Source of the DNA: Callorhinchus milii
Taxonomy: Eukaryota
Direction: 5' to 3'
Length of the DNA stretch: 64,000 nt
Assembly (NCBI RefSeq): GCF_018977255.1
Contig: NW_024704742.1
Coordinates: 124,498,001 to 124,562,000, forward strand
In this document: piece after piece, positions 11,671 to 62,800 of the stretch
How the letters are laid out: the number at the start of each line of letters is the position of its first letter
Position numbering within the stretch: position 1 is the stretch's first letter
Notes under the pieces: model-generated
What the model saw: the letters and a program-made list of their open reading frames with translations, nothing else
Database searches by the model: none
What the model was told of the DNA's origin: nothing
Program-made: the position numbers and the translations under genes

Positions 11671-12409
11671 ACGTCTATCTTTATAGAAGATTATAGAAGA
11701 ATTTCCCAATTAACCTGAAATGTCATGAAAAGAGAATCCAACAACTTGCATTTACATAGCGCCCCTCAATCAGGGTAGCATCTCAGAGCACTTAATAGGG
11801 CGGAGCTTGATGTCAAGCGAGAGAGACAGCAGTGGAGACCATAGGCACATTTGAAGAGGAAGGTCTTCAAGTTGGCAAGGAAGGGGCAAGGTAGAGGGAT
11901 TGAGGAAGAGAGTTCCAGAATTTGGGGGTGTAATGGCTGAAAGCAAAGCTGCCAATGGTAGAGCAGAGGGGAGAGGGGCTATGGAAGGCTGGAGCTGAGA
12001 GACGTGCAGGTGGAGCCCCTCATCTACCAAAGACGGTGGTAAAGGAGTGAGGTGTAAGCAGATCGGGTGGTAGGTAGGTGCCAGGGCATAAAGTGATTTA
12101 TACACAAGTGTGAAGATCTGGAATCAATCTGTTCTGTAATAAAAGATCCAGTGGAGCTTGGCGAGGACTGGGGTGATGGGGGTGCGGATTCTGGTATGAA
12201 TGAGAACACAAGCGGCAGAGATCTCATCAATGGGATTTCATGAGTGGAGCTGGGGAGAACAGGAAAAATCACTGGAAAAATCAAGGCAGAAGGTGATGAT
12301 CACGTGGATGAGGGTTTCAGCTGCGCTTTGTATGAGGCAGAGGTACAGGAAAGCAATCCTGATCAGGGCAAAGATAACTGGAGATCAAAACCGATACCTA
12401 AGTTGCACC

Positions 12410-13690
12410 TAGGTCGAGCCTGCCCCACCATTCGATAAGATCATGGCTGATCTTCTGACCTGTAAAGACCTGCCCTATCTGATATCCCCTAATCCCTCTA
12501 TTTTTAAAAAATCTATCAGTCTCAGCCTTGAAAATGTTCAAGGACTGAACATGGGATAGTGAATTCCATAAATTCACTACCCTCTGAGTGAAGAAATGTT
12601 TCCTCAACTCTGTTCTAAAAGGCTGACCCTTAATTTTAAGACTGTGACCCCTGGTTATAGATTCTCCTACCAGGGGAAACAGTCCCTCAGTGTCTACTTT
12701 ATCCAGCCCTTTAAGAATCTTATATGTTTCAATAAGATCTCCCCCAATTCTTCTGTACTCTAGTGAATATAGCCCTAGTTTATTCAGCCTATCCTCAAAG
12801 GTCAGTCCCCTCATCCCAGGAACTAGCCTAGTGAATCTACTAAGGCAAGTATGTCCTTTTTTAAATAAGGAGACCAAAACTGCACACAATACTCTAGGTG
12901 CGGTCTCACTAAGGCCCTATACAGTTGCAGCAAGACTTCCCTACTCTTGTACTCTAAACCTTTTGCAATGAACGCTAACATGCCGTTTGCCTTCTTAGTT
13001 GCTTGCTGCATCTGCAAACTAACTTTCTGAGACTGGTGTAAAAGGACACCCAAATCCCTCTGAACACTAACACAATCTAATCTCTCCCCTCTAGAAAATA
13101 ATCTGTTTTTCTATTTTTGCTACCGAGGTGAATAAGTTCACACTTCCCCACATTAAATTCCATCTGCCCCTACTCGCCCACTCCCCGAGCCTATCTATAT
13201 CCCGTTGCAATCTTTTTGCATCATTCTCAGAGCTTACTCTCCCACCTAGTTTAGTGTCATCCGCGAATTTAGATACGTTACATTCAATCTCCTCATCTAG
13301 ATCGTTGATGTAAATTGTAAATAGCTGAGACCCAACCACTGATCCTTGTGGCACTCCATTAGTCACATCCTGCCAATTCGAGAATGACCCGTTTATCCCT
13401 ACTCTCTGTTTTCTACCTGTTAGCCACTCTTCAATCCATGCTAATATGTTCCCATTAATCCCGTGGGCCTTAACCTTGTGCAATAGCCTTTTGTGTGACA
13501 CTTTGTCAAATGCCTTCTTAAAATCTAAATATACTACATCTACTGGTTCCCCACTATCTAACCTGCTAGATACATCTTCAAAAACTCTAAAAGATTAGTT
13601 AAGCATGACTTTCCTTTTGTAAAGCCATATTGACTCTGCCTAATCTTGTTATGGTCTTCCAGGAATCTCATAACGACATCCTTAATCAAG
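12410..13690 (-). mobile_element. CR1 LINE, 5'-truncated, frameshifted reverse transcriptase
   Basis: HKRLLHKVKAHGI...GVPQGSVVGSQLFTIYINDLD...SKFADDTKLGG; LYRALVRPHLEYCVQFWSP; FFTQRVVNLWNSL. Confidence 0.95.
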
Positions 13691-17119: not shown

Positions 17120-17890
17120 ATAGATAAGTGTGAGGTGGTATATTTTGTAGGAGGAATAAGGAGGTCACATACTGCCTGAAAAATAAAAATCTAAATAGGG
17201 TAGAGGAGCAAAGGGATCTAGGGGGACAGATACACAAATCGCTGGAAGTAGCGAGGTAGGTTAAGGCCATAAAAAANGCAAATCAAGTGTTGGGGTTCAT
17301 TTCTAGAGGATTTGAAATGAAAAGCAGGGAAGTTATGTTAAACTTATATTGAAACTTGGTTAGATCACACTTGGAGTATTGTGTACAGTTCTGGTCCCCA
17401 TATTACAGGAAGGATGTAGAGGCACTGGAGAAGCGGCAAATGAGATTTACAAGGATGATACTGGAACTGCGAGGTTATACCTAACAGGAAAGTCTGAACA
17501 AGCTTGGACTCTTCTCTTGAAAAGAGAAGGGTAAGTGGTGACCTAATAGAGGCTCTTAAAGTTATGAAAGGTTTTAATAGGGTAGACATAGAGAAGATGT
17601 TTCCACTTGTGGGGGAAACCAAAACCAGGGGCCATCAATATAAAATAGTCACCAATAAATCAAATAGGGAAGTCAGAGGAAACTTCTTTACTCAGAGAGT
17701 GGTGGCTACCACAAGTAGTTGAGGTGAATAGCGTAGATGCATTTAAGGAGAAGCTAGTACATGAGGGAGAAAGGAATAGAAGATTATGCTGATAAGCTTA
17801 GTTGAGGAACGGCAGGAGGCTCATGTAGAGCATAAACACCAGCATAGACTAGTTGGGCCAAGTGGCCTGTTTCTGTGCTGTATATTCTAT
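17120..17890 (+). mobile_element. CR1 LINE 3' fragment
   Basis: LEKRRVSGDLIEALKVMKGFNRVD...FFTQRVV; cacacttggagtattgtgtacagttctggtc. Confidence 0.88.
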
Positions 17891-20800
17891 GGAATTACAC
17901 CAGACTTGATGGCCAAAAGCTTTGCTTCTGTGCTGTGGACAGGCTCACAGAAGCAGGGCTTTCGGCCATCAAGTCTGGTGGATTTCCCTACATGAACCAC
18001 TAATACCACTCCATGAACAGTTTAATATTCCTTTTTTTAAGCATTTGTCAAAATCCCTTTTGAATTTCTGGACCCTGCTTCAACATGGTTTATGACATTC
18101 CAACAAACCTCTGGGTAACAAAAAATATTTTCCAACCTCCGCTTTAATTTCTTTTGTGATCATTTTAAACATGTGTTCTAACTTAAATGCAGTATATCTG
18201 AAAACATTATGAAGTTAAAATTTTGGCATTTGTGAGTCTATGCAATTTGATGTAAAAATGATTTCTTCCAGTACAATGCAGAATTTCTCCCCAAAATCCA
18301 ATCAAGTTATTTCTGTGATAAAATTATCAGCCATAAGGTAAGAAAAATTCTACAGATAAAATGACAGAGGAGGTACATCTACTGAATCACAGTAGCCTTT
18401 TTCAATATGACAGTACGTACTTAAGACTGTACCTCAATGTTAGACTAATGCACAAAATTGTTTTTAAACAATTTCAGTACTTTGATTGCTTATAATTTAT
18501 TTAACATGTCCACATTATATATTTTTGTAATCAAGTATAGTAAACCAAGTAATTAAAATTTGGTAAATCAATCACAAGACAAATAATGGTCTGTAACAAG
18601 ACTGCCTTAAAGCAGGAAAATGGTTAGATCAGAACATATAGTTGCAAAGGGATGACAGACCTTTAGCAATATAATATTTTAGTATTAGCCTAACAGTTGT
18701 CATCACCCTGAGGTATGTTTTGGCTCAATCAGAACCAGTGATGCAGAGTTTAATTCAGCCGTGCTTTCAGCAATTTTGTGTTAACCACCCACAAGGACTT
18801 TTATCACATAATATCTGCTACAATAACATGAAAGTCAGTAGTCAAGCATCAAAGGACTGTAAAGGACATAAGCAAGCAAGGAGGGCCCTAAGGGGTAAAT
18901 CACTAGTGATGTGCAGTCACAGCCAGCAGTGTCTGGGAATTTAAAAGATGCTTCGCATAATCTTGGTTGCACAATTTTTAGCTGTCAGTCCAACAGAAAC
19001 AGGACACCAGACCCAGGTAAAAGGACCAAATCTCATGGAAAATATATACTCAACATATTTTTAAATTTTAAATTAGTTTAATTCTCAAACTTGCCCCACT
19101 GAAACCTGTAGAGAAACAGCCTGGATAATCTGTTTATACTTTACTATTGTGGTACTACCTGTATTTCAATGAAAGGGAATTCACCCATCAAACTGGCCAA
19201 TATTCCTTCCTCAATTGAATTTCATCATAAAATGACTGATTGGCTATTCATCTTATTGCTATTTGGTGACTCTGCTGGCATAAATTAGCACCATTTTCCC
19301 TAGATAACTAGGAGTCACTAGACTACACCATTAATTGTATGAAACATTTGAGATGCTTCAATAGAAGGCATTATATATATATCTTGGCGTTCGATACAAA
19401 TCACTCTTAATTTCTAAAGAAACCAACTATTTTCAATCAAATCTAAATAGAGGATGCAGGAGGAACACCACCCTTTTAGCTCTGCCTGGAGAATACCGAT
19501 GAAGGTTGGAAGAAGCCAAGGCATTAAGAGTCCCAAAGTGTAAGCGAATGTACTCTTAGAATGAAACCAGTTAAAACTAGTTTACCAGCACAAAGTACTG
19601 GGTGCAATCTGGATGTCGATGAGAACAAGTTTGGGCACATTAGACATTTACCCTCCACAATTTTAGAGCCTGATAACATTCATAGTCTAAGCTAACGGGT
19701 GAAGAATGGCAGGAATTAAATTCAAGTTCTAATTCAAGTTGTTTTAGCTGATTTCTAAACTCACTGAATTATTACAGTAACAATAAATAAGGCAGTCAGA
19801 TGGAAGCTTTTAGGAGTACAGTACTCCACAACAAATAGCTTTAGTGGGTGAAAATATTTATCTTCTACGTAAATGCTGACATGTTTATAAAGAACACAAC
19901 AGGAAGTTTTTTTAATTAAATTGTTCCCTACCAATAAACTCCCATGAATAACGCTGTATGTTGTCTTAACTTTACTTATTTTTTTCTAAAATATCCAGCT
20001 GCATACTTAAAAATACTGCAATACAAAACATCGCCTATTGATTCTCATCATTTTACATACAATACCACAATCAAACTGAATACAAGAAACAGATCCAGTT
20101 GTCTGCAATTAGTAATCAGCAGATCTAACATTAAAGGCATGTTTTGGTCATCCCTTCCCAGCATTTTGGTCTCTGCTACTACGCTAATTATAGTATATTC
20201 ATAATTATTTCATTAATTATATACAATAGAATTAATTAGCTTTCCGGGGATAATAACCACTCAAAAAAAATCCTTAATTGTTCGTGGGACATTGTTGTGG
20301 GCAATTGGCTGCTGTATTTTGTCCACAAAATACCGTCACTACACTTTACAGTATATTCTATGAAGCGACCTAGACATCTCAACGCCGTGAAAAGGTGACA
20401 TATCAAATGCAAGGATTATTATTAATGTAAAATGTTCTATATTGGTAAAAAGGCACTCCTCAATTACCAAAGGAAACCTCCAGCCTATTTGTCCACCCCT
20501 ACCATTCAACCATAATCAAGTGCTCTCTCCTTTTCCCATCCCCAAGCCCCCAACAACAGCACAGGAACCCATGTACCAGCATATATTATCTTCATTGCAA
20601 AACAAAATTATCTACGTATAGATAATAATATTGCTCATGCTGATAGTGAACATTGATATTCTGCCAGGAAAAATGAACATCATCTACTATTTGATTAGGA
20701 TCAATGTTCAAATAAAAAGTCATAACATTCTTGTACTTCTAGGTGGCAACACAAAATTTGGCTGATTCGATAATCACATGCAATAATATATATTGCTTTC

Positions 20801-21544
20801 TAAATAAAATGTTTTGAAAGAAAATGAAAAAAAATCTCAAAACCAAATTAAAAACATTAGAAGTCAAACTTACAAATGACAGCTGCAAGACAAACTATTT
20901 GCTATCTTCCAGAGGTGGAGAGTGTTTGGGAGCAATTGAAGAAAACTCTTTGAGGCTGACCTGGCTTTGTCCATAAAACTTGGTGAGGCCAGATCAGTCA
21001 CTGGAGACAGGGATTCTTCTCACTTGGTGCCTGTTAACCCTTCTCACCACAAGAGTAGCTGGACATGCAAGGTGAAACATGCAGACTTTGTTCACAATGG
21101 CAAGCTACACAGTTTTAGTTGTGTCACGGTAGGTTAAACTCCCCTCCCGGTGAACCCCAACATGCACTCTTGGGTCCACTTCTGCTTAATAAATTCTGGG
21201 ATTAGGCAAGCAGGATGTTCCTGTCTAGGAATGGCACATCATCCCAGACAACATGAAATTTCCAAGAAGATGTGAAACTCTCAGGCTGGTGTGGATACTA
21301 ATAGGCATGTTGATGGGACCTCTGTCTGTGTCAACTGGCTGACCAACAAAAAAAATGAAAAACAAACTTTTTTTGAATACAACAATAATGATTATCTTTG
21401 CTTAGATCTGTATTTGTCACAAATCCTACTATAATTTATCATTTATAATTTGTATGAATGTTTAATAAATTGGCCTTCAACAAAAGATCATATTCAAATA
21501 CATGATAATAATACTTGTATTTGATACAGCCCATTATCATGTGC

Positions 21545-22060
21545 TTTGGAAGGATGTTAAGGCATTGGAAAGGGTGCAGAGGAGATTTACGAGGATGGTA
21601 CCAGGAATGAGGGACCTTGATTATGAGAAAGGCGAGAGAGGTTAGGATTATTCTCATTGGAGCAGAGAAGGTTACGAGGAGACCTAATAGAGGTCTTCAA
21701 AATCATGAGGGCATTTGATAGGTTAGAAAGGGAAAAACTGTTTCCACTGGTGGGTGTGTCGGTGTCTCAAGGTCACAGATTCAAAATAGTATCTAAAAGC
21801 AGAGGGGAGGTGAGAATAAATGTTTTCACGCAACAAGTTGTTCGAATCTGGAAAGCATTGCCTGAAAGGGTGGTCGAGGCCGATTCGATAACTACTTCTA
21901 AAAATGCGGTGGATGGGTATTTGAGGAGGATGGGTTTACAGGGTTATGGAGAAAGAGCTGGTGAGTGGGATTGACATTAATTGCTCCATTCAAAGAGCCG
22001 GCACAAACTCAATGGGCCGAATGGCCTCTTTTTGTGCTGTACGATTCCATGATTCTATGT
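21545..22060 (+). mobile_element. CR1 LINE 3' fragment
   Basis: LEQRRLRGDLIEVFKIMR...FTQQVVRIWKALP; 3' end gggccgaatggcctc...(attctatg)-like tail. Confidence 0.88.
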
Positions 22061-40525: not shown

Positions 40526-41532
40526 TCATCTCAGAGGTGAGTTGGGTCTGCTGGACCGCAGGCTACCCAGCGATCTTTTTAAGGAGCTGTAAGACCTTTC
40601 GTGTTTCTTTTTGGCTGCCTTATAGCATTGACGCACTTGCCACTTCCTGAAAGCTTTCTGTATAGTCAGGGCAGCCTTGATCTCTTTGCGTATCATGAGA
40701 GTAGTCGTTGTCGTTCGCATTGTACTTCGAATTGGAAACAATTTCATTGCTTTAGTGAGGGTTTTCTCACTCAGCTTCTTCAAGGGCTCGGTCTCCACTA
40801 TATTACCAATCACCACAGAGCTGAGAGATTTGAGGACATCCAGGCAATGCAACTTGTGGCCGTCCACCAACGGGAAGTTGAGAGCAGCTATTTTGACTGC
40901 ATTGGGCTTTGGGATCTGCAAAGGATGCTTCAGCTCGTGTAAGAAGTCAGGCAGCTGCTCGTAGGTGATAAACTGTGTCGCGTTGGGATCAAAATTGCTC
41001 CAGACCTCATAAAACATGTCCACGTCTTCGTCGGTCACTCCGGAGATTTCCTGCTCTTGGGCTTCGTGGAAGTTTTCCAGAATCACCGCCACGTACATGT
41101 TGATGATGACTATGTTCGCGCACAGTATATACGATGTCATGTAGATGATGGCGACAAATGGACGCTGTTCCTTGGAGTGAACCATCACCTGCAGGACCTC
41201 ATTCCAGGCGGCGGCGGTGGTTAACCTGAACAGGAGCATCATACTGTTGCCGAAGGTTTCGAAATTGACGATGTCGTTTATCGGGGGTTCACGCGTTAGA
41301 TCGCGGAACAGATTCATTCCCAGGATGGCGTAAATGAACATAACAAGACCCAGCAGCAGCCCGATGTTGAAGAGCGCCGGGATGGAGATGACCAACGTGA
41401 AGAGGAGCTTTCGAATCCCCTTCAAGGACCTCACCAGCCTCAGTAAGCGGGCGAGCCGCACAATGCGGAACACCCGCAAAATAGTTGGGGAAACCGCTTG
41501 CTTTTTGGATGCAGTGGAGTCCAATAAAATTC
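40526..41532 (-). CDS. Nav2-type channel, terminal exon: DIV S4-S6, EF-hand-like C-terminal domain and IQ motif
   Basis: ccattag|GAATT...TGA; S4 RVFRIVRLARLLRLVRSLKGIRK, pore FRLTTAAAWNEVL, S6 INMYVAVILENF, FYEVWSNFDPNATQFI, IQ motif IQKAFRKW. Confidence 0.97.
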
Positions 41533-45427: not shown

Positions 45428-45698
45428 CTGCAATGGAAAGAATAACAACTATAAAATCAAAGATATTCCAGGCTTGAGTGAAGTAGTATAGACGTTGGCC
45501 TGAAAGTTTTACAACTGCTTCAAGTGTGAATAAGGCTGTGAAGATAATGTTGAACCAATTTAAAACAGTGGCAAATGTTTTTGTCTGCCCATAATGATCG
45601 CATGCCATTACCAACACGTTCAAGGTTATCAGGCCAATGGTGCAAGGCTCAAAACCTTTATGGCTCACTAGCTTGTAGAACTGCAAAGATATTTTATT
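45428..45698 (-). CDS. Nav2-type channel, exon encoding DIV S1-S3
   Basis: caacag|AATAAA...ATTGCAG|gtaact; 271 nt, ...FTALFTLEAVVKLSGQRLYYFTQAWNIFDFIVVILSIA; WNIFDF motif; size equals the equivalent Nav1 exon. Confidence 0.95.
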
Positions 45699-52318: not shown

Positions 52319-52432
52319 CTTAGGAGCGGGAATTTTCTTAGTTGGTTTAGCTTGAGAAAGACGTTTGAACGTGCTATAAAATCTTCTCTGATCTTCAGTG
52401 AGAAGCGTGACTAACGCACCTTCTTTTCGTGA
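52319..52432 (-). CDS. Nav2-type channel, exon encoding the DIII-DIV linker (inactivation gate region)
   Basis: tgttgcag|TCACGA...CCTAAG|gtatgc; 114 nt, SRKEGALVTLLTEDQRRFYSTFKRLSQAKPTKKIPAPK, alignable to Nav1 [33 protein letters not shown]. Confidence 0.93.
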
Positions 52433-54195: not shown

Positions 54196-54880
54196 TGATA
54201 TCATATTGTGCATCCACAATCGGCCAATCAGCACCATAAGCCATACATGTATCACATTTCTGGTGTACCACTGATGCACAATCCGGTTATGCAATGATGA
54301 AGAGCATAGTAATAGTGTCAGCCTATATTTGTGCTCCTAGAAATGTCATTTTAATTTTGAGGATTGTTGGCCAGGGCACTGGGCAAAACTTTCTTCTCAT
54401 TTTAAACTCTGTTTAATTAACTTCTCCGCCCCCATCCTTTGGAACTCCATCCCTCAATTCCTTCGCCTCGCTCCCTCCCTTGCCTCCTTCAAGGCACGTC
54501 TAAGACCCTGATCTTCCACCACGACTTTGGCCACCCTCCTACCTTCTCTCCCTTCCACCCGCCCCGATCCCAACCCCCCGCTCAGGTCCAAATTCCTGAC
54601 TGTGAAAGGCACTTTACAAATGCTATTTGGTATTGTATGCCATGTGCTTTTTAATATCCATCTGTAAACAGGCACATCAAACCTTGGTTTAACAAAATTC
54701 ATCATCTCTGATATAGCATTGCTCCCTCAGTCATCCATTGCAATATAAACCTAGATTATGAGCTCAAGCCCTGGTGCAGGGCTCAAACTTACAACCTTCT
54801 GAACCTAAGGCGAGAGTTTACCAACTGATCCAAATGAAGGGATAATATAATCGAGATTAATATTACTTTCAAAAACTCAC

Positions 54881-55018
54881 CCTTTTATGCATGGTGTTGA
54901 AATTGTCAATAATTATACCAATGAAAAGATTCAGAGTGAAAAATGTTCCAATGACTATAAAAGCAACAAAGTAGAAGAGACTATAAGGATTTGCTCCCAT
55001 TTCAGGCTGAAAGTCGAT
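54881..55018 (-). CDS. Nav2-type channel, exon encoding DIII S6
   Basis: ttggcag|ATCGAC...AAAAGG|gtgagt; 138 nt, [46 protein letters not shown] (Nav motif [15 protein letters not shown]); absent from the ORF track. Confidence 0.95.
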
Positions 55019-56645
55019 CTGCCAAAGACAATACAAGTGTTAGTATTACAGTCTGGTAGAAGTATGAACAATTCTATTTTAAGCAGTAAAACCAAAATGG
55101 ACAATACGTTTTTAAAATGTACAATCTTCCTCCGAATTTACAAACTGATAAATATCTTTGTACAGTCAAAGAATTATTATAGTTTTATTTGTGGAGAGGA
55201 TGCTGGTCAAAAGCAGGACCTGATCTGTTTCACTTACACACTTACTGCTTCAACTATATCACACACTTGAATATGTAACAGTGTGAAGCTTCAATATTTA
55301 ACAACCAATTTTAGTTTCTGCTGATCTATTCAAGTGATCTCAATGGTAACGTCAGTAAACAGGAAATTTCCTGCATTAAGTTTGGAAGCAAACCTACTAT
55401 TTAAAAATAGTCAGCATTCCAAGCCACTTTGTTCAAGTTTAGGAGTTAATCAGTTGAGTGTAGCAAATGGGAAACAAATATGCTCTGGTGACGCCAAAAG
55501 CCAAATATGAGCAGTCTCAATGGACCACGGCCACTTGCCAGCTCTATACAGTTCTCATATGCGTACCAATTGAGATACATCTTTTTAGTTTTCATTGAGT
55601 TCTCATATTTGCTATCAAAATACAGAGCGAAGCATGTGGAAATGACCTGCAACTGGCACATATTGGTTGTACAAAACGCCTCCCTGATATTAGTCAGAAG
55701 GTGCCCACTTTGTGTCTACTTTACTGATTCATTCATGCAAGGCATTACTAACCATGGTGGTGGGTGAGTTGTTTGATGCTCTGATGTTTAGTAAATTTAT
55801 TGACAATCTATTGAGGAGCCTTTGAGATGCAGATTATTGCTAAAGTTTTTGTAATTTGTGTATTTATTTTAAAATCCCCTCTATTGTATCACCATTGATA
55901 TTCTAATGCATCTCTCAGTATCACCATTATGGGTGGTGTGTGAAACAAGGAGACCAGGTTTCCCTGAGTCACACATCATCCATAATCCAGCACCTTGGGA
56001 CATCCTCCCGATGTGAAAGGCACCATACAAATGTATTTTATATTGCATTGCATTAGAATGGAGATTTAGTAATGACCAGGCCTTGGAGCGTTACTTTTCC
56101 CAGTGGGTGGGACAGTCCTGCATGGGGTGAGAGCCACAGGGAGGGAGGTGGTGGGCGGGGGTGGTGGTGGGGGAGAAAAACATTTTGTCTTAAAATTTAA
56201 GATTGTGAATAATTGTGGGAAATTAATTAATTTTAAATTTAATTATTATAAATTAAAATCTCTATTTGGAAGATAGTTGTTTTTAGAAAAAACTGTGGAA
56301 AACCGACTCTCAAATATATAACTCAATGTAGAAATTTTCTATAATCCATCTCTTTCTATCTCATATTATAAGACAAATTTGTCTTGCAGGCTAAAACTAG
56401 GTGGGATTTCAGGCATATAAGATCAAGGTCTTGGGAGTGGAAATAAATGAAATAAGAGTAGATACATTCTGTGTTTTATATTTAAATTGCCTCCCATGAA
56501 CTGACATTTTCAGTCCATAAGGCATTTTTCATGTAATTAGTAAAATTGCACAGCAATGATCTTAAATTATTGTAAGAACCTAGGGCTTGATGCTCCTGTA
56601 GAGTTAATGGTTTCTCATTCAATATAAACAAAATTGTGAACCTAC

Positions 56646-56699
56646 CCCTCGGGTATCAGCAGCATTGGCCATAATTTCCAACCAGCCTTCAAATGTCGC
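56646..56699 (-). CDS. Nav2-type channel, 54-nt exon with the DIII selectivity filter (ATFEGWLEIMANAADTRG)
   Basis: ttacag|GCGACATTTGAAGGCTGG...CGAGGG|gtagg; same size and phase as the Nav1 ATFKGWMDIMYAAVDSR exon; in frame with both neighbouring exons; absent from the ORF track. Confidence 0.95.
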
Positions 56700-57084
56700 C
56701 TGTAAATAGATAAAGCCAGCAGAAAATGGTGTCATTGACATAAATATCTTCAGTAACGTTAACAATGACATTCAAGATAATATATAATAATAATCCTTGC
56801 ATTTGATGTTTTCATACCATGTTTTCAAGACGTCTCAAAGTACTTCACAGAATATACTGTGAAGTGAATTGACTGTATATTTTTTGGGCGAAACACAGCA
56901 GCCAATTGCGCACAGCAGTGTCCCACAAACAGTCGTGGATTGAATGACCAATTATTTGTTTTGAAGGAATTATTATGACTCTTATCTGAGATAAAATGAC
57001 TCTTATCTGAAAACTAAACCGTAGTATTCACAGGAGATCACAGGACAGGTTCAAATGAAAAGGTTTCTCGGCCTTATGATTTGA

Positions 57085-57655
57085 TTTCCTGCTTGCCGGC
57101 CTTCCCAACTCTTCCATCTGCAAGCTTCAGATCATCCAGAACTCTGCAGCTCATGTCCTCTCCCGCACCAGGCTCCGTGACCCAAGTAGCCCAACCCTCG
57201 CCCGGCTCCATTGACTCCCCATGCCGCAGAGGATAGAGTTCAAAATCCTTGTCCTCGATTTCAAGGCCCTCCTTGACCTTGCCCCTCCCTACCTCTGCGA
57301 CCTGCTGAACCTATATTAACCTGTCCGCTCCCTCCACTCAGCAGGCTCTGGCCTGTCCCATGTCCCCCAGCCCAACCCGCCCCACCATTGGCGGTAGGGG
57401 CTTTAGCCTTTCTGTCCCCAACCTATGGACCTTCATCCCACATTCGCTTTGCCTCGCTTCCTCCCTTGCCTCCTTCAAGGCATGTCTCAAGACCCTCCTT
57501 TTTGACCCAGCCTTCAGCCACCCTCCTACCCGCTCTGCCATCCATCCTCCCTGATCCCAACCCCCAGCTCAGGTCCAAATCCTTGACTGTCCAGCGCTTT
57601 GGGATGTCCTCCTGATGTGAAAGATGCTATACAAATGTAATTTAGTGTTGTATTG
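57085..57655 (+). mobile_element. L2 LINE 3' fragment
   Basis: cttcagatcatccagaactctgcagc...gagttcaaaatcctt...; tail cagcgctttgggatgtcctcctgatgtgaaag. Confidence 0.85.
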
Positions 57656-59581
57656 TAAATTTAGGGGATCATCTTTGTTGCTCTCCTTTGTTTCTAGGCC
57701 CTGAGCAGCCTCTTTTTGTCACAAAGACCAGCATCCTACACAATGCTTAAGGTGTGGCTTAAACCAGAGCATTGTATAGCTTGGGAGCTGAATTCCATTG
57801 ATATGGCAATTTAGCAATCTGTTTGCCTTGTTTATTGTTTATACCCCATTCTAGGGCCCAAAAATGCTCTATCTGACATCATTGCTGCGTGTCCTGCCGC
57901 AAAAGAACCTCCAATGCAAAAAATGTTTTCCCCATATAAACCATTGTATGCTATGCAGCTTTGTGAACCTTTAAAAGGACCAAAGGAAAATCTCTCTTTG
58001 CTGTTTGAATAGTGTCAGGGAGTCTTTAGCATTCACTTGAGCAGAGAGACAGGACCTCAGTTCAATATCTCATTTGACAAAGCAGCACTGGAGGGTCAGT
58101 CTAGACTGTGAGCTCAAAGTCTCAATGTGGCTATTGACCCACGATCTTCTAACCTTCTGACCCAGAGGCGGGTGCTACGAACTGAGCTGAACTGACACAT
58201 TTCTACTACTTATTTCTCTGATGGAAGCAATGTGTAGTCATTTGTTTTTGCTTCCAGGGTTATCACAGCAATTCCCGTTCTGCTATAACTTATGGGTAAG
58301 TGTTGGGAACACCCAGTAAAGCCTCCCACTACAATTTCAGGTACATTTAAAAAGGAAATCTCTTTACAAACACCCGTTAAAATATAACACAGTTCTAACA
58401 TGGTCAGTGACTAACTGTAGTGCCCTGTGGTTGTTTTTCTATTTCTGTTGATTTCTTGATTTGAGGCCAGAGTTAACACCATTTGCCAAGTCCAATAGCA
58501 GACTCCGGCGGAATCCGGTCCTTTGATAGTATGCCTCAAAGCGGCTGCCAGGGATGATTTAAAATGTGGCAAAGTCTGTGAAATTCAAATCAGTGTCTGG
58601 TTCACATTTGGAAATTTCTTCACAGCCTACTCAAAGCCCGATTGCCTAGTCCAGAATTGGACGCAGAGCAATCCTACTTATGAGAAAGGGCAGATGTTAA
58701 ACAATTATTGTGATTACAAGTGATAGATGGTAATAAAAGGATGACTTTACAACTGAAACTTAGTGTCTGTTTATGGGACAGATTAAATACTTAGATCATG
58801 AGTAATTTAATCATTAGCTCTAAAGAAGGAGAACAATTTTTAAGCACTTTTCCAGAACAATTGTAATAAATATTCCTTAATTAAAAATAAATCGTTGAAA
58901 GATTTATCTTGCCACCTTTATTCTCTTTACTGCAATAATGGAATATTTCCTTTCTTAGTTATGTTATACATTTACCAAAAATCTGGGCTATAAATTCCAA
59001 CAGTATTTAAGTCACTCTCCTTTACTTAGGGGGCAGACAAGCACGTCCAAAATCACCATTTATATGCAGCTGCTCATGTACAATGTTGTTTATTTAATGC
59101 AATGAATTAAACCCTGGAACCACATAAGAAACAATGCACTGAAATGAAAAATGTTGACAATATGATTTACAGTTTTCTTCTAAATATGTTTCATTATTCA
59201 CACTTAGAATAGAGCCACTATCAGAATGAGGAGTATATATTTATAAACAATTTAAGACTGTAAGAACGCTTGCAGATATCACAGTGGTTCCATAGAAGTA
59301 CATAGACTGTACAACATTGAAACAAGCCATTCGGCCCTAACAGTCTATGCCTGGGTTTATATTGCACATGAATTTCCACCCATCGCCTCTCCCTATCCCC
59401 CTCTATTTCCTTCCCTTAGCTATAGTATCTTTGGTGCATATTCATAATGTATATATATTTCTGCTAAATCCAAAAGCATTCCTAAATAATGTTTAAGAAT
59501 ATATTGCAATCATTACAGCATTAATATGCCCCCAAAAATTGCAGTCTGTCATTATTATTATATACATTATTGTTTACTTAC

Positions 59582-59854
59582 CACCTGCAGAAGAGCCATG
59601 TAAGCAGTCAATATGTTATCAAAATTAATCTCGGAGTTGACCCATTGGTATCCAATATCCTTATATGCATCACAATCAGATCGATTATTTATTATAGTAA
59701 TGGGAAGGCGTTCATCATTTTCATCCACACATCGAAAAAACATTCCACCAAATATCTGAACACCAACAATGCCAAATATCAGCCAGAATACGAGACACAC
59801 TAACATGACATTAGAAATGGATGGGATCGAAGCAACCAAAGCATTAACAACAAG
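59582..59854 (-). CDS. Nav2-type voltage-gated cation channel alpha subunit, exon encoding DIII S4-S5 linker, S5 and pore loop P1
   Basis: ttacag|CTTGTT...CAGGTG|gtaagt; 273 nt, LVVNALVASIPSISNVMLVCLVFWLIFGIVGVQIFGG...NFDNILTAYMALLQV, matching the Nav DIII pattern VVNAL..IPSI.NVLLVCLIFWLIF...NFDN...YL.LLQV. Confidence 0.95.
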
Positions 59855-62800
59855 CTGTAAGACAAAAGAAAGCATCGACTTAAATTGCAGACTCACTATT
59901 ACAGGGCACAGTGAAAACAGATTCATTTGCAACAAATTCTGGTTCTACAGAGTTACCATGGATGGAACGGTGGAAGCGATATAATATTTAGCTGATAATG
60001 CTTGAGCTATGCATCAATCATTTTGTGGTTAAAGCAGATATTGTGGTATTAACTCTGCATTTTAAAAAAGTTCGTACAATTTTTTAAATAATGTTTCTAA
60101 CTATGACATGTTTGACTAATATTTAAATACATATTTGACATAAATAAAATAGCTTATGAGTTTACACAATGATATCTGTTTTACTTTAGCAGTGAGTTTA
60201 CATATTCTGACAGATCAATAGCAATACTACATATATAGAAAACTAACATTGACACATTTGTTGTTCCTCATGTGAATACTTTTAGGTACATCTTAACATG
60301 TTGCTCTAGTGTTGCAATGCTACTATATTCCTGCTGGTGTCGCTGCTGAGCTGGTTGTCTATGTTCTCAGGGATGTCACCAGCAGAAATATGAAGGGACT
60401 GTCACTGTGAAACACAGGTAGAAACTATGTTCTTGATTTCATTTATTTTGTTTAATCATAAGTTTCATGATAAATTTGCAAATGCAAAAATGTTAACATC
60501 GATGAATATGTGAAAACTTTTTTAAAAAAATCCTTGCATCTTGTTGTCGTTGTTGCATTTGATATAGCACCTTTCACATCGGAAAGACGCCTGAAAGTGC
60601 TTTGAAGGATTCACTGTAAAGTGCATTTACACTGTCACTGCATTTTGTAGGTAGATGCGGCAGCCAAATTGCACACATCAATGTCCCCCAAACAGCCATG
60701 AAGTGAATGGCCATTTTATCTGGAATTTAAGCCCTCTGAACAGTCAGGATTTAAGCAGAATTTTGAAAAAACTGCAAATGCTTGAAACAAAAAGAGAAAA
60801 TGTGCAAATGTGCATCAGATTCATTATCATGCGATTCAATACAGCTCAGACTGAGGGAATGAAAACCTCCTCCCTCTAATGGCTTTGAAGGGCTACTGTA
60901 AAATGGTTTATAGTTCAACCTAAAATGTAGCGAGTGAGTCCTCATCATGGCAGTAAATAATGTATAATAAAGCTCTACTTGTCATCAAATCTCACTCAGA
61001 GAGGGCACAAGGACATCTGGTTTAGAAAATGGCAGTGATGCACTGGTGCTATGGAGGTTGTACTCTACATTTGCGATGTTGCTTAGCTGTAGCTCAAGTA
61101 AGAAATATTATAGCACGATTTCTGATGTTCTCATTGGAATTCTCAACTGTCGTGCATTAAATTGACATTAATTGACATTAAATCTCAATCAGGAAATTTT
61201 CCTGGAAAAATTAGGAGTCAGGATACTTGAGAATATCAGGAGAGAAATGACTTTTAAGCTGTAACAGTCTAGAGGGAGCTTTACTATCTATCCTGTGCTA
61301 TAACTGATCTGGGAGTGTTTAATGTTGAAATTGAGTGCAAAGAGTGGAATATGTTCCATTCTTTATTATTAAATCACATTTGATGACTTTGATGAACAAC
61401 ATTCTCCCACTCCCCCCTCGCCCCGAAGTATGTGGAATTGTATAGTAATCACATAACATTATAATATAACTTATTTTATATGTGATTTGCTGTGACACAG
61501 ACAAAACAGCAGAGTGGTAACAGAAAGCAATGCCTAGTTGTGCTGTACCACAGCAATCTGTGAATTCCCAATCCTTGTATTACTTTAGTCAATACCATAT
61601 GATTTCCAAAGAAATCTTCCCTGCTCCATCTGACGAAATCTCCGCTCTCCAACAGATTGTCTTTTCCTTACGTGTAATGTGATTTTTACTCTTAGGGTTG
61701 AGGCTAGGTTTATACCACGAGAGAGAACAACCTGCAAGTGAGTTGGATAAACTTTGACGAGGGATTCAATATTTTTTCTCAAGCTCAAAAAATAATTTCT
61801 GGCGGGTGATCTCAGTTGTCCATTGTCATGAAACTAGCAGGAACATAATTTTTATTTCCACACTTAAGGGGCCTCTGGAGTGTTATAAACTTCCAACTTT
61901 TTCCATCAGAGCAAAACATCCACAAATCAGATGTTCAAATTCAAAATAGTTTTATGGAGCCAACAAAGATATAACTTCATTACTTCATGTCCCAAGGCTA
62001 GATTTTTGTTCTTATAGTTTACATTTTTTTAAAAGATTGTTTTCCCAGGAAGATATTATTTGGCAGAACATTTGCTACAGCAATGTTTACATCTGGATTT
62101 TATACATTCTTTAATGCCTGTTCCCAGAGCTGGGTTTGAACTTAATTTTTTTAAAAGATGAACTTTTATGCATTAAAAAAAGTTTTTATAGAATCCTATT
62201 GTCCTCCTCAAAATTAAAAGTTGTTTCTTATGCATCTATGAACTGGAGTTTGTTTATATCCCACACATGCTTGTGGTTTGTTTTGGCTGTGATTCACTAA
62301 CAGTAAATGACAGTGATGTCCCTTTTATAAGTGATTGTAGATTGTAGGCACAAGAACTGAGAACAGCAAAGTCCTTCTGTAATGCACCTTGGGTGCTAAA
62401 GCTAATTTTTTAAAATACATTCGTCAATGATTCCTAGCTTTAAGATTGAAACATCTGAGTGAGACATTCCTTTCGCTGCCAAATAGATTGACGGCGTGCG
62501 CTTAATGTGTGCTAAAAGAAAAGTGGCTACACTGAGCTGCAAGAGAAATATTATCCTTTATTTTTGGATGTAATACAAAAATAATATTTTTGCAGCACAT
62601 CCTACTGGAGGTTTAGCACAGGTACATTTAGTGATTTTTTGTGATAACTGTCTTTTATTTGTTCCACTATCTCCCCAGTATAGCAGAATCAAATGATGCT
62701 GTCAAAACAAATACGTTTGATCTGTTATTGAAAAAACAAGGAAATTGCAACTAATTACTTTTTTCCTTCTCGCTCTTGCCAATTTTCTTTATCCCGAAAG

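What the first reader, a model, noticed from the sequence alone, without database searches (positions are those of the whole stretch)
56682..56699. Domain III selectivity filter is Glu (GAA at 56690-56688), not Lys
Seen: the 54-nt exon, invisible in the ORF track, reads ATF-E-GW, and DIV retains Ala. Known: the DIII Lys of DEKA is the main determinant of Na+ selectivity, and K-to-E makes Nav1 channels Ca2+-permeable. Inference: the filter is probably DEEA, so this 'sodium channel' should pass Ca2+ and other cations. The DI and DII residues are outside the window.
Basis: partly seen in the sequence, partly recalled or inferred. Interest (0 to 1): 0.85.

Follow-up and report, generated by a model that had tools for sequence, protein, structure and literature searches.

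The report
Elephant shark's calcium-passing Nav2 channel gene
The glutamate is real but expected: this is the ancient Nav2 channel gene, a calcium-passing cousin of nerve sodium channels already reported in elephant shark, not a sodium channel that changed its filter.

Summary
Observation confirmed. The 54-nt exon (56699-56646, minus strand) reads ATFEGWLEIMANAADTRG, with GAA at 56690-56688. A spliced contig joins it to the next exon with no differing letter, and no Lys-coding alternative exon was found. The domain I and II pore exons, read upstream on the same contig, give Asp and Glu, so the filter is DEEA. The last exon is 100% identical to Callorhinchus milii models. Five other Nav loci in this genome carry Lys. 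Flanking pore residues, neighbouring genes (MOCS2, follistatin, NDUFS4) and a conserved Glu in 23 of 24 vertebrate species make this the single vertebrate Nav2 (DSC1/BSC1/CaV4 class), where DEEA is the defining, ancestral state. A 2018 review already lists Nav2 in ghostshark, coelacanth and lampreys. Calcium permeability is inferred from invertebrate members; I found no recording of a vertebrate one. No tree could be built. Side results: orthologues exist in bichirs, sturgeons, paddlefish and salamanders, against that review's 'absent from ray-finned fish and tetrapods', and the vertebrate branch lacks the IFM Phe, one domain I gating charge and the domain IV cysteine loop. Verdict: known gene, untested function.

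The parts
59582..59854 (-). Exon, 273 nt: DIII S4-S5 linker, S5, extracellular loop and P1 helix
   Evidence: Splice motifs; tblastn of C. milii models; Ion_trans hit; covered by X1 contig 7 with 0 differences
56646..56699 (-). Exon, 54 nt: DIII selectivity filter and P2 helix (ATFEGWLEIMANAADTRG)
   Evidence: joined to the next exon in X1 contig 1; same exon position in five Nav1 loci
56688..56690 (-). GAA, DIII filter Glu (third letter of DEEA)
   Evidence: no difference listed in 4 of 4 runs laid
54881..55018 (-). Exon, 138 nt: DIII S6
52319..52432 (-). Exon, 114 nt: DIII-DIV linker; T-L-L stands where Nav1 has I-F-M
   Evidence: alignment A1
45428..45698 (-). Exon, 271 nt: DIV S1-S3
40526..41532 (-). 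Last coding exon: DIV S4-S6, EF-hand-like region, IQ-like motif, stop
   Evidence: 100% identical to C. milii models P0001-P0008; Pfam Ion_trans and GPHH
41210..41212 (-). GCC, DIV filter Ala; the next residue (41209-41207) is Ala where other Nav channels have Gly

Best explanation
The window holds the last six coding exons (DIII S5 to the stop) of the single Nav2 gene of Callorhinchus milii, a four-domain voltage-gated channel of the DSC1/BSC1/CaV4 class. SHOWN: four pore exons on one contig give D-E-E-A; the exons are open and canonically spliced; five other Nav loci in the genome have Lys. INFERRED: with three acidic side chains and no Lys in the filter, the pore binds and passes Ca2+ as well as Na+ and K+ when depolarisation moves the S4 segments; with no IFM Phe, inactivation should be slow. 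It would act as a slow depolarising and Ca2+-entry channel, not a spike generator. The Glu is inherited from the Nav1/Nav2 ancestor; Nav1 gained the Lys. Confidence about 0.97 for identity, about 0.85 for Ca2+-permeable function.
For: Filter: DI, DII; DIII; DIV. Paralogues: 5 of 6 loci have Lys. Conservation: DIII Glu in 23 of the 24 vertebrate species whose models score 54% identity or more (read); the 24th model (Lampetra, P0037) skips the exon. Class signatures read by eye, independent of the filter residue: DII Pro in GEWIEP is shared with 6 of 6 invertebrate Nav2-type rows and 0 of 6 Nav1 rows (Thr/Ser); DI Leu before the Asp with 6 of 6 Nav2-type rows having that part against Gln in 3 of 3 Nav1 rows; DIV L-F-R with 5 of 5 Nav2-type rows against L-F-Q in 4 of 4 Lys-bearing rows. 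Precomputed Pfam: PF06512 and PF11933 are on none of the 41 orthologue rows listed (P0001-P0038, P0040-P0042), while the vertebrate Nav1 rows carry PF06512. BLASTP of P0003: 713+405 bits against amphioxus P0084, 949 bits against ray Nav1.4 P0108. Neighbours MOCS2 upstream, follistatin and NDUFS4 downstream; Nav1 genes lie beside Hox clusters (recalled). Literature: PMC6259924 (passages and sections 20, 24) says DEEA defines Nav2, all expressed Nav2 are slow and pass Ca2+ and Na+, a single homologue is known in Australian ghostshark, and Nav1 and Nav2 share intron positions.
Against: No tree was built (script machine lost); class assignment rests on signatures, scores, synteny and the review. 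The invertebrate rows were labelled Nav2-type from their own filter and database names, which is partly circular. Identity of the last exon to invertebrate Nav2 (42-47%) and to vertebrate Nav1 (41-47%) overlaps, and the BLASTP margin is modest and compares summed with single alignments. The original paper (Zakon et al. 2017) could not be read, so that its gene is this locus is inferred. X1 is RNA only by guess, and the upstream junction (59582 to 56699) was not shown. The vertebrate branch differs from measured members at gating and pore-adjacent sites, so their properties may not carry over.
Confidence: 0.9

Rival explanations
1. It is Nav2 by descent but does not work like the invertebrate members: its altered DI voltage sensor, lost IFM Phe, Gly-to-Ala beside the DIV filter and missing DIV cysteine loop give a different gating or selectivity, or a need for an unknown partner.
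For: Alignment A1: first Arg of DI S4 is Ser in 3 of 3 vertebrate rows that hold it; DIV P2-S6 cysteine loop absent in 9 of 9 vertebrate rows, present in 7 of 7 others; Phe of the linker motif absent in 11 of 13 chondrichthyan models (P0016 and P0017 show Phe in a differently predicted exon start); Ala after the DIV filter in 13 of 13 chondrichthyans.
Against: The three acidic filter residues, the outer-ring Glu of DI and DII and the S4 charges of DII-DIV are kept from lamprey to sturgeon, as expected for a conducting, voltage-gated cation channel.
Confidence: 0.08
2. A vertebrate Nav1 paralogue that changed Lys to Glu and lost sodium selectivity.
For: Exon layout matches Nav1; databases name the models 'type 4' or 'type 9 alpha-like'; best PDB hits are Nav1; tunicates have Nav1 paralogues with altered filters (PMC8192821 passage).
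Against: Intron positions are shared by Nav1 and Nav2; no entry among the 49 PDB hits is named as a Nav2, so Nav1 is top by default; three independent flanking signatures side with Nav2; PF06512 absent; different neighbourhood; lamprey orthologues have the Glu too.
Confidence: 0.015
3. Assembly error, private allele, pseudo-exon or one of two mutually exclusive exons.
For: Only one base separates GAA from AAA; contigs drop rare variants.
Against: No difference at the codon in 4 of 4 runs, spliced contig in X1; Glu in 23 of 24 species; no second ATF.GW exon in the window.
Confidence: 0.005

Closest known systems
Vertebrate Nav2 of ghostshark, coelacanth and lampreys (Zakon et al. 2017, seen only as cited in PMC6259924)
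   Same: Species, single copy among six Nav loci found, DEEA filter. Most probably this very gene.
   Different: Nothing shown to differ. The review states absence from ray-finned fishes and tetrapods; database orthologues exist in bichirs, sturgeons, paddlefish and three salamanders.
Invertebrate Nav2: Drosophila DSC1/NaCP60E, cockroach BSC1, honeybee CaV4, Nematostella Nav2
   Same: DEEA filter, DI/DII/DIV flanking signatures, Asn in the DIV outer ring, no PF06512 region; measured as slow and Ca2+-permeable (search listing).
   Different: They keep M/V-F-L in the III-IV linker, the first DI S4 Arg, Gly after the DIV Ala and the DIV cysteine loop; this protein has lost or changed all four.
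Vertebrate Nav1 (DEKA), five loci in the same genome
   Same: Four-domain layout, 54-nt DIII filter exon, C-terminal region.
   Different: Lys in DIII, IFM, other flanking residues, other loci.

Membership tests
Nav2 (DSC1/BSC1/CaV4) | Filter D-E-E-(A/G/S/T), no Lys in DII or DIII | tested here: met
Nav2 (DSC1/BSC1/CaV4) | Four homologous domains in one gene with Nav-type exon layout | tested here: met
   Exons of P0003 map in order on the minus strand of C1 124538529-124602098; DI and N-terminal exons in L014
Nav2 (DSC1/BSC1/CaV4) | Flanking residues shared with Nav2 and not Nav1 | tested here: met
   Three sites read by eye: 6/6 v 0/6, 6/6 v 0/3, 5/5 v 0/4
Nav2 (DSC1/BSC1/CaV4) | Falls in the Nav2 clade of a phylogenetic tree | not tested
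   Script machine lost; reported in the literature as cited by PMC6259924
Nav2 (DSC1/BSC1/CaV4) | Slow, Ca2+-permeable voltage-gated current | not testable with these tools
   Needs electrophysiology
Nav1 | Lys in DIII (or DII) of the filter | tested here: not met
Nav1 | IFM-type inactivation motif in the III-IV linker | tested here: not met
   T-L-L at 52432-52319
Cav1-3 / NALCN | Filter EEEE, EEDD or EEKE; higher similarity to Cav than Nav | tested here: not met
   DEEA; orthologue P0011 scores up to 1173 bits against Nav chains and at most 544 against Cav chains

The most novel reading that the evidence does not exclude
Vertebrate Nav2 is a functionally distinct, non-inactivating Ca2+/cation channel kept in more lineages than published (lampreys, sharks and rays, bichirs, sturgeons, paddlefish, coelacanth, salamanders), and it was kept because ampullary electroreceptors use it: every lineage found here is electroreceptive (recalled), while no gar, bowfin, teleost, frog or amniote orthologue appeared. 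In salamanders only the DIII-DIV half is annotated, possibly a split or half channel. Against: no lungfish or caecilian orthologue appeared either, these lineages retain many old genes anyway, the review says expression is outside the nervous system, and a skate electroreceptor preprint has no occurrence of 'sodium channel'.
Probability: 0.08. Interest if true: 0.8.

Novelty: already known. Interest (0 to 1): 0.27.

Why it matters
As a finding it is a correct rediscovery: databases label this gene as a Nav1.4- or Nav1.7-like sodium channel, and the filter shows that it is not one. The open part is function. The recordings listed in the review I read are from insects, a sea anemone and a choanoflagellate, and no PDB hit is named as a Nav2. 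A vertebrate member with an intact DEEA pore makes it testable what this channel did in vertebrates and why it was lost. The wider distribution seen here would move the losses from 'ray-finned fishes and tetrapods' to later branches.

Tried and rejected
Tree: not obtained; the script machine was lost. Zakon et al. 2017 is not held. The skate preprint 10.1101/274449 has 0 occurrences of four terms in its main text, weak evidence. Searches for a report of Nav2 in sturgeon, bichir or salamander (listings only) showed none; timed out; most subscription papers are not searched, so 'not in print' is not shown. No RNA holder is on record (X1 is a guess); this says nothing about expression level or tissue. 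A search for DI-DII pieces under 917 aa found only shark orthologues (Mustelus, Chiloscyllium) and no salamander piece, but scored only 7998 candidates, so it is weak. The exhaustive representative search showed no new vertebrate lineage among the rows I identified; I looked up 5 unnamed top rows of 150 (four named invertebrates, one unnamed of those shown, plus one Logan record), and orthologues above 50% identity would be hidden inside clusters. No structure was predicted, since a model cannot decide selectivity. Earlier findings: none near this place.

Full report
Observation. On the minus strand, 56699-56646 lies between an AG acceptor and a GT donor and translates ATFEGWLEIMANAADTRG. Codon four, 56690-56688, is GAA. 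It is one of six exons in the window: 59854-59582, 56699-56646, 55018-54881, 52432-52319, 45698-45428 and 41532-40526 (boundaries, mapped by tblastn). Their lengths keep one frame, and database model P0007 runs through the same residues in order. DIV has GCC (Ala) at 41212-41210.

Is the codon real and used? Four runs were laid on 54800-59900 (contigs only, 2 studies). One X1 contig covers 54881-55018 and then 56646-56700 with no other letter and no intron, so it is a spliced form; X1 is RNA only by guess. Contigs of X2, X3 and X4 span the codon and no difference is listed there. The upstream junction was not shown. A six-frame scan found ATF.GW once, and the degenerate DNA pattern has one exact match, the other 6 of 7 being three-mismatch matches at chance level. 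So no Lys-coding alternative exon is evident.

What gene? The last exon is 100% identical to Callorhinchus milii models with automatic names such as 'type 9 alpha-like' or 'type 4 alpha A-like'. Searching the window's genome with P0003 placed the remaining exons upstream on the same contig and strand and found five other Nav loci. The DI pore exon gives Asp (GAC) and the DII pore exon Glu (GAA). The filter is therefore D-E-E-A, read from DNA. N-terminal and DI sensor exons are present too. The other five loci have AAA or AAG at the same codon of the same exon, so the animal keeps ordinary DEKA channels.

Relatives. The best hits after C. milii are 12 sharks and rays, coelacanth, two bichirs, two sturgeons, paddlefish, three lampreys and two salamanders at 54-82% identity, followed at 41-47% by invertebrate '60E' proteins and vertebrate Nav1. 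add two sturgeons, a third salamander and another shark. The DIII residue is Glu in 23 of the 24 species; the Lampetra model lacks the exon. Lampreys have Gly at the DIV position (DEEG).

Class. Three sites outside the filter positions side with Nav2: Pro two residues after the DII Trp-Ile-Glu start (6 of 6 invertebrate Nav2-type rows, 0 of 6 Nav1), Leu before the DI Asp (6 of 6 against Gln in 3 of 3), and Arg in DIV L-F-R (5 of 5 against Gln in 4 of 4) (read by eye). The orthologues lack PF06512, which vertebrate Nav1 rows carry. P0003 scores 713+405 bits against an amphioxus DEEA channel and 949 against a ray Nav1.4, a modest margin. The gene lies between MOCS2 and follistatin, with NDUFS4 beyond; MOCS2-FST-NDUFS4 is the human order with no channel between them, and Nav1 genes sit by Hox clusters (both recalled). 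No tree could be built; this is the main gap.

What is known. PMC6259924 (I saw passages and sections 20 and 24) states that DEEA distinguishes Nav2; that all expressed Nav2 homologues gate slowly and pass calcium and sodium; that Glu-to-Lys turned a choanoflagellate Nav2 sodium-selective; that Nav1 and Nav2 share 20 intron sites; and that single Nav2 genes are known in Australian ghostshark, coelacanth and lampreys, expressed outside the nervous system, citing Zakon et al. 2017, which I could not read. PMC8192821 (passages) treats Nav2 as outgroup of Nav1 and notes tunicate Nav1 paralogues with altered filters. Papers on honeybee CaV4 and DSC1 were seen as search listings only.

How it most likely works. 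Shown: DEEA filter, intact exons, charged S4 segments in DII-DIV. Inferred: the three carboxylates without a Lys admit Ca2+ along with monovalent cations; depolarisation opens the channel; lacking the IFM Phe it inactivates slowly. It would supply slow depolarisation and Ca2+ entry in some non-spiking cell type. The cell type is not known from this work.

What differs from measured members. In alignment A1 the vertebrate branch has Ser for the first DI S4 Arg (3 of 3 rows holding it), no DIV cysteine loop (9 of 9 rows, against 7 of 7 others having it), and no Phe in the linker motif (11 of 13 chondrichthyan models). All 13 chondrichthyans have Ala in place of Gly after the DIV filter residue. 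These are reasons to measure rather than assume. None of the 49 PDB hits of the shark orthologue is named as a Nav2.

Wider distribution. The review says Nav2 is absent from ray-finned fishes and tetrapods. Bichir, reedfish, sturgeon and paddlefish models hold the pore motifs in open frames, and three salamanders have DIII-DIV or DIV models with some S4 charges lost. Four answered searches (listings only) showed no paper on this, but coverage is partial.

Verdict. Real feature, correct DEEA prediction, known gene. Novelty: already known. Interest 0.27, for an untested vertebrate member and a distribution wider than stated in the review.

Noticed in passing
window 34156-29546 (minus): Follistatin gene directly downstream of the channel, same strand; FST_N and Kazal domains hit.
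   Followed up: partly
window 25750-25653 (minus): Probable first coding exon of NDUFS4 (98 nt, GT donor) in a GC-rich island; the NDUS4 domain exon lies further down the contig. Assignment of this exon is by position and resemblance recalled, not tested.
   Followed up: partly
G000:C1:124630648-124631753 (L021, L022): MOCS2 (MoaE) upstream on the opposite strand; gives a MOCS2-Nav2-follistatin-NDUFS4 block usable to test losses in other vertebrates.
   Followed up: partly
P0041, P0042, P0125: Salamander orthologue models hold only DIII-DIV or DIV, with lost S4 charges in DIII and DIV; the axolotl model has a long unrelated insert in the III-IV linker. Annotation break, half channel or decay is undecided.
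   Followed up: partly
P0024, P0027, P0029, P0031, P0033: Orthologues in bichirs, sturgeons and paddlefish, against the review's statement of absence in ray-finned fishes.
   Followed up: partly
P0035, P0036: Lamprey orthologues have Gly at the DIV filter position (DEEG) and Leu before the DIII Glu.
   Followed up: no
P0007 and relatives, II-III loop: A short motif conserved from sharks to sturgeons in the otherwise variable II-III loop aligns near the Nav1 ankyrin-binding motif in A1; may be an alignment accident.
   Followed up: no
L020 1487-1584 (G000:C290): One Lys-bearing paralogue diverges in the 54-nt exon and its donor does not align with the others.
   Followed up: no
P0001-P0010: Each C. 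milii model that I read (P0001, P0003, P0007) misses or misreads some exon, for example P0007 lacks the DII pore exon; N-terminal exons visible in L014 3092-3271 are absent from them.
   Followed up: partly
window 56784-57640 and many other introns: Very high-copy interspersed repeats (depth over a million), and LINE-like reverse transcriptase fragments near 12400-13600 and 17400-22000 seen in ORF translations.
   Followed up: no
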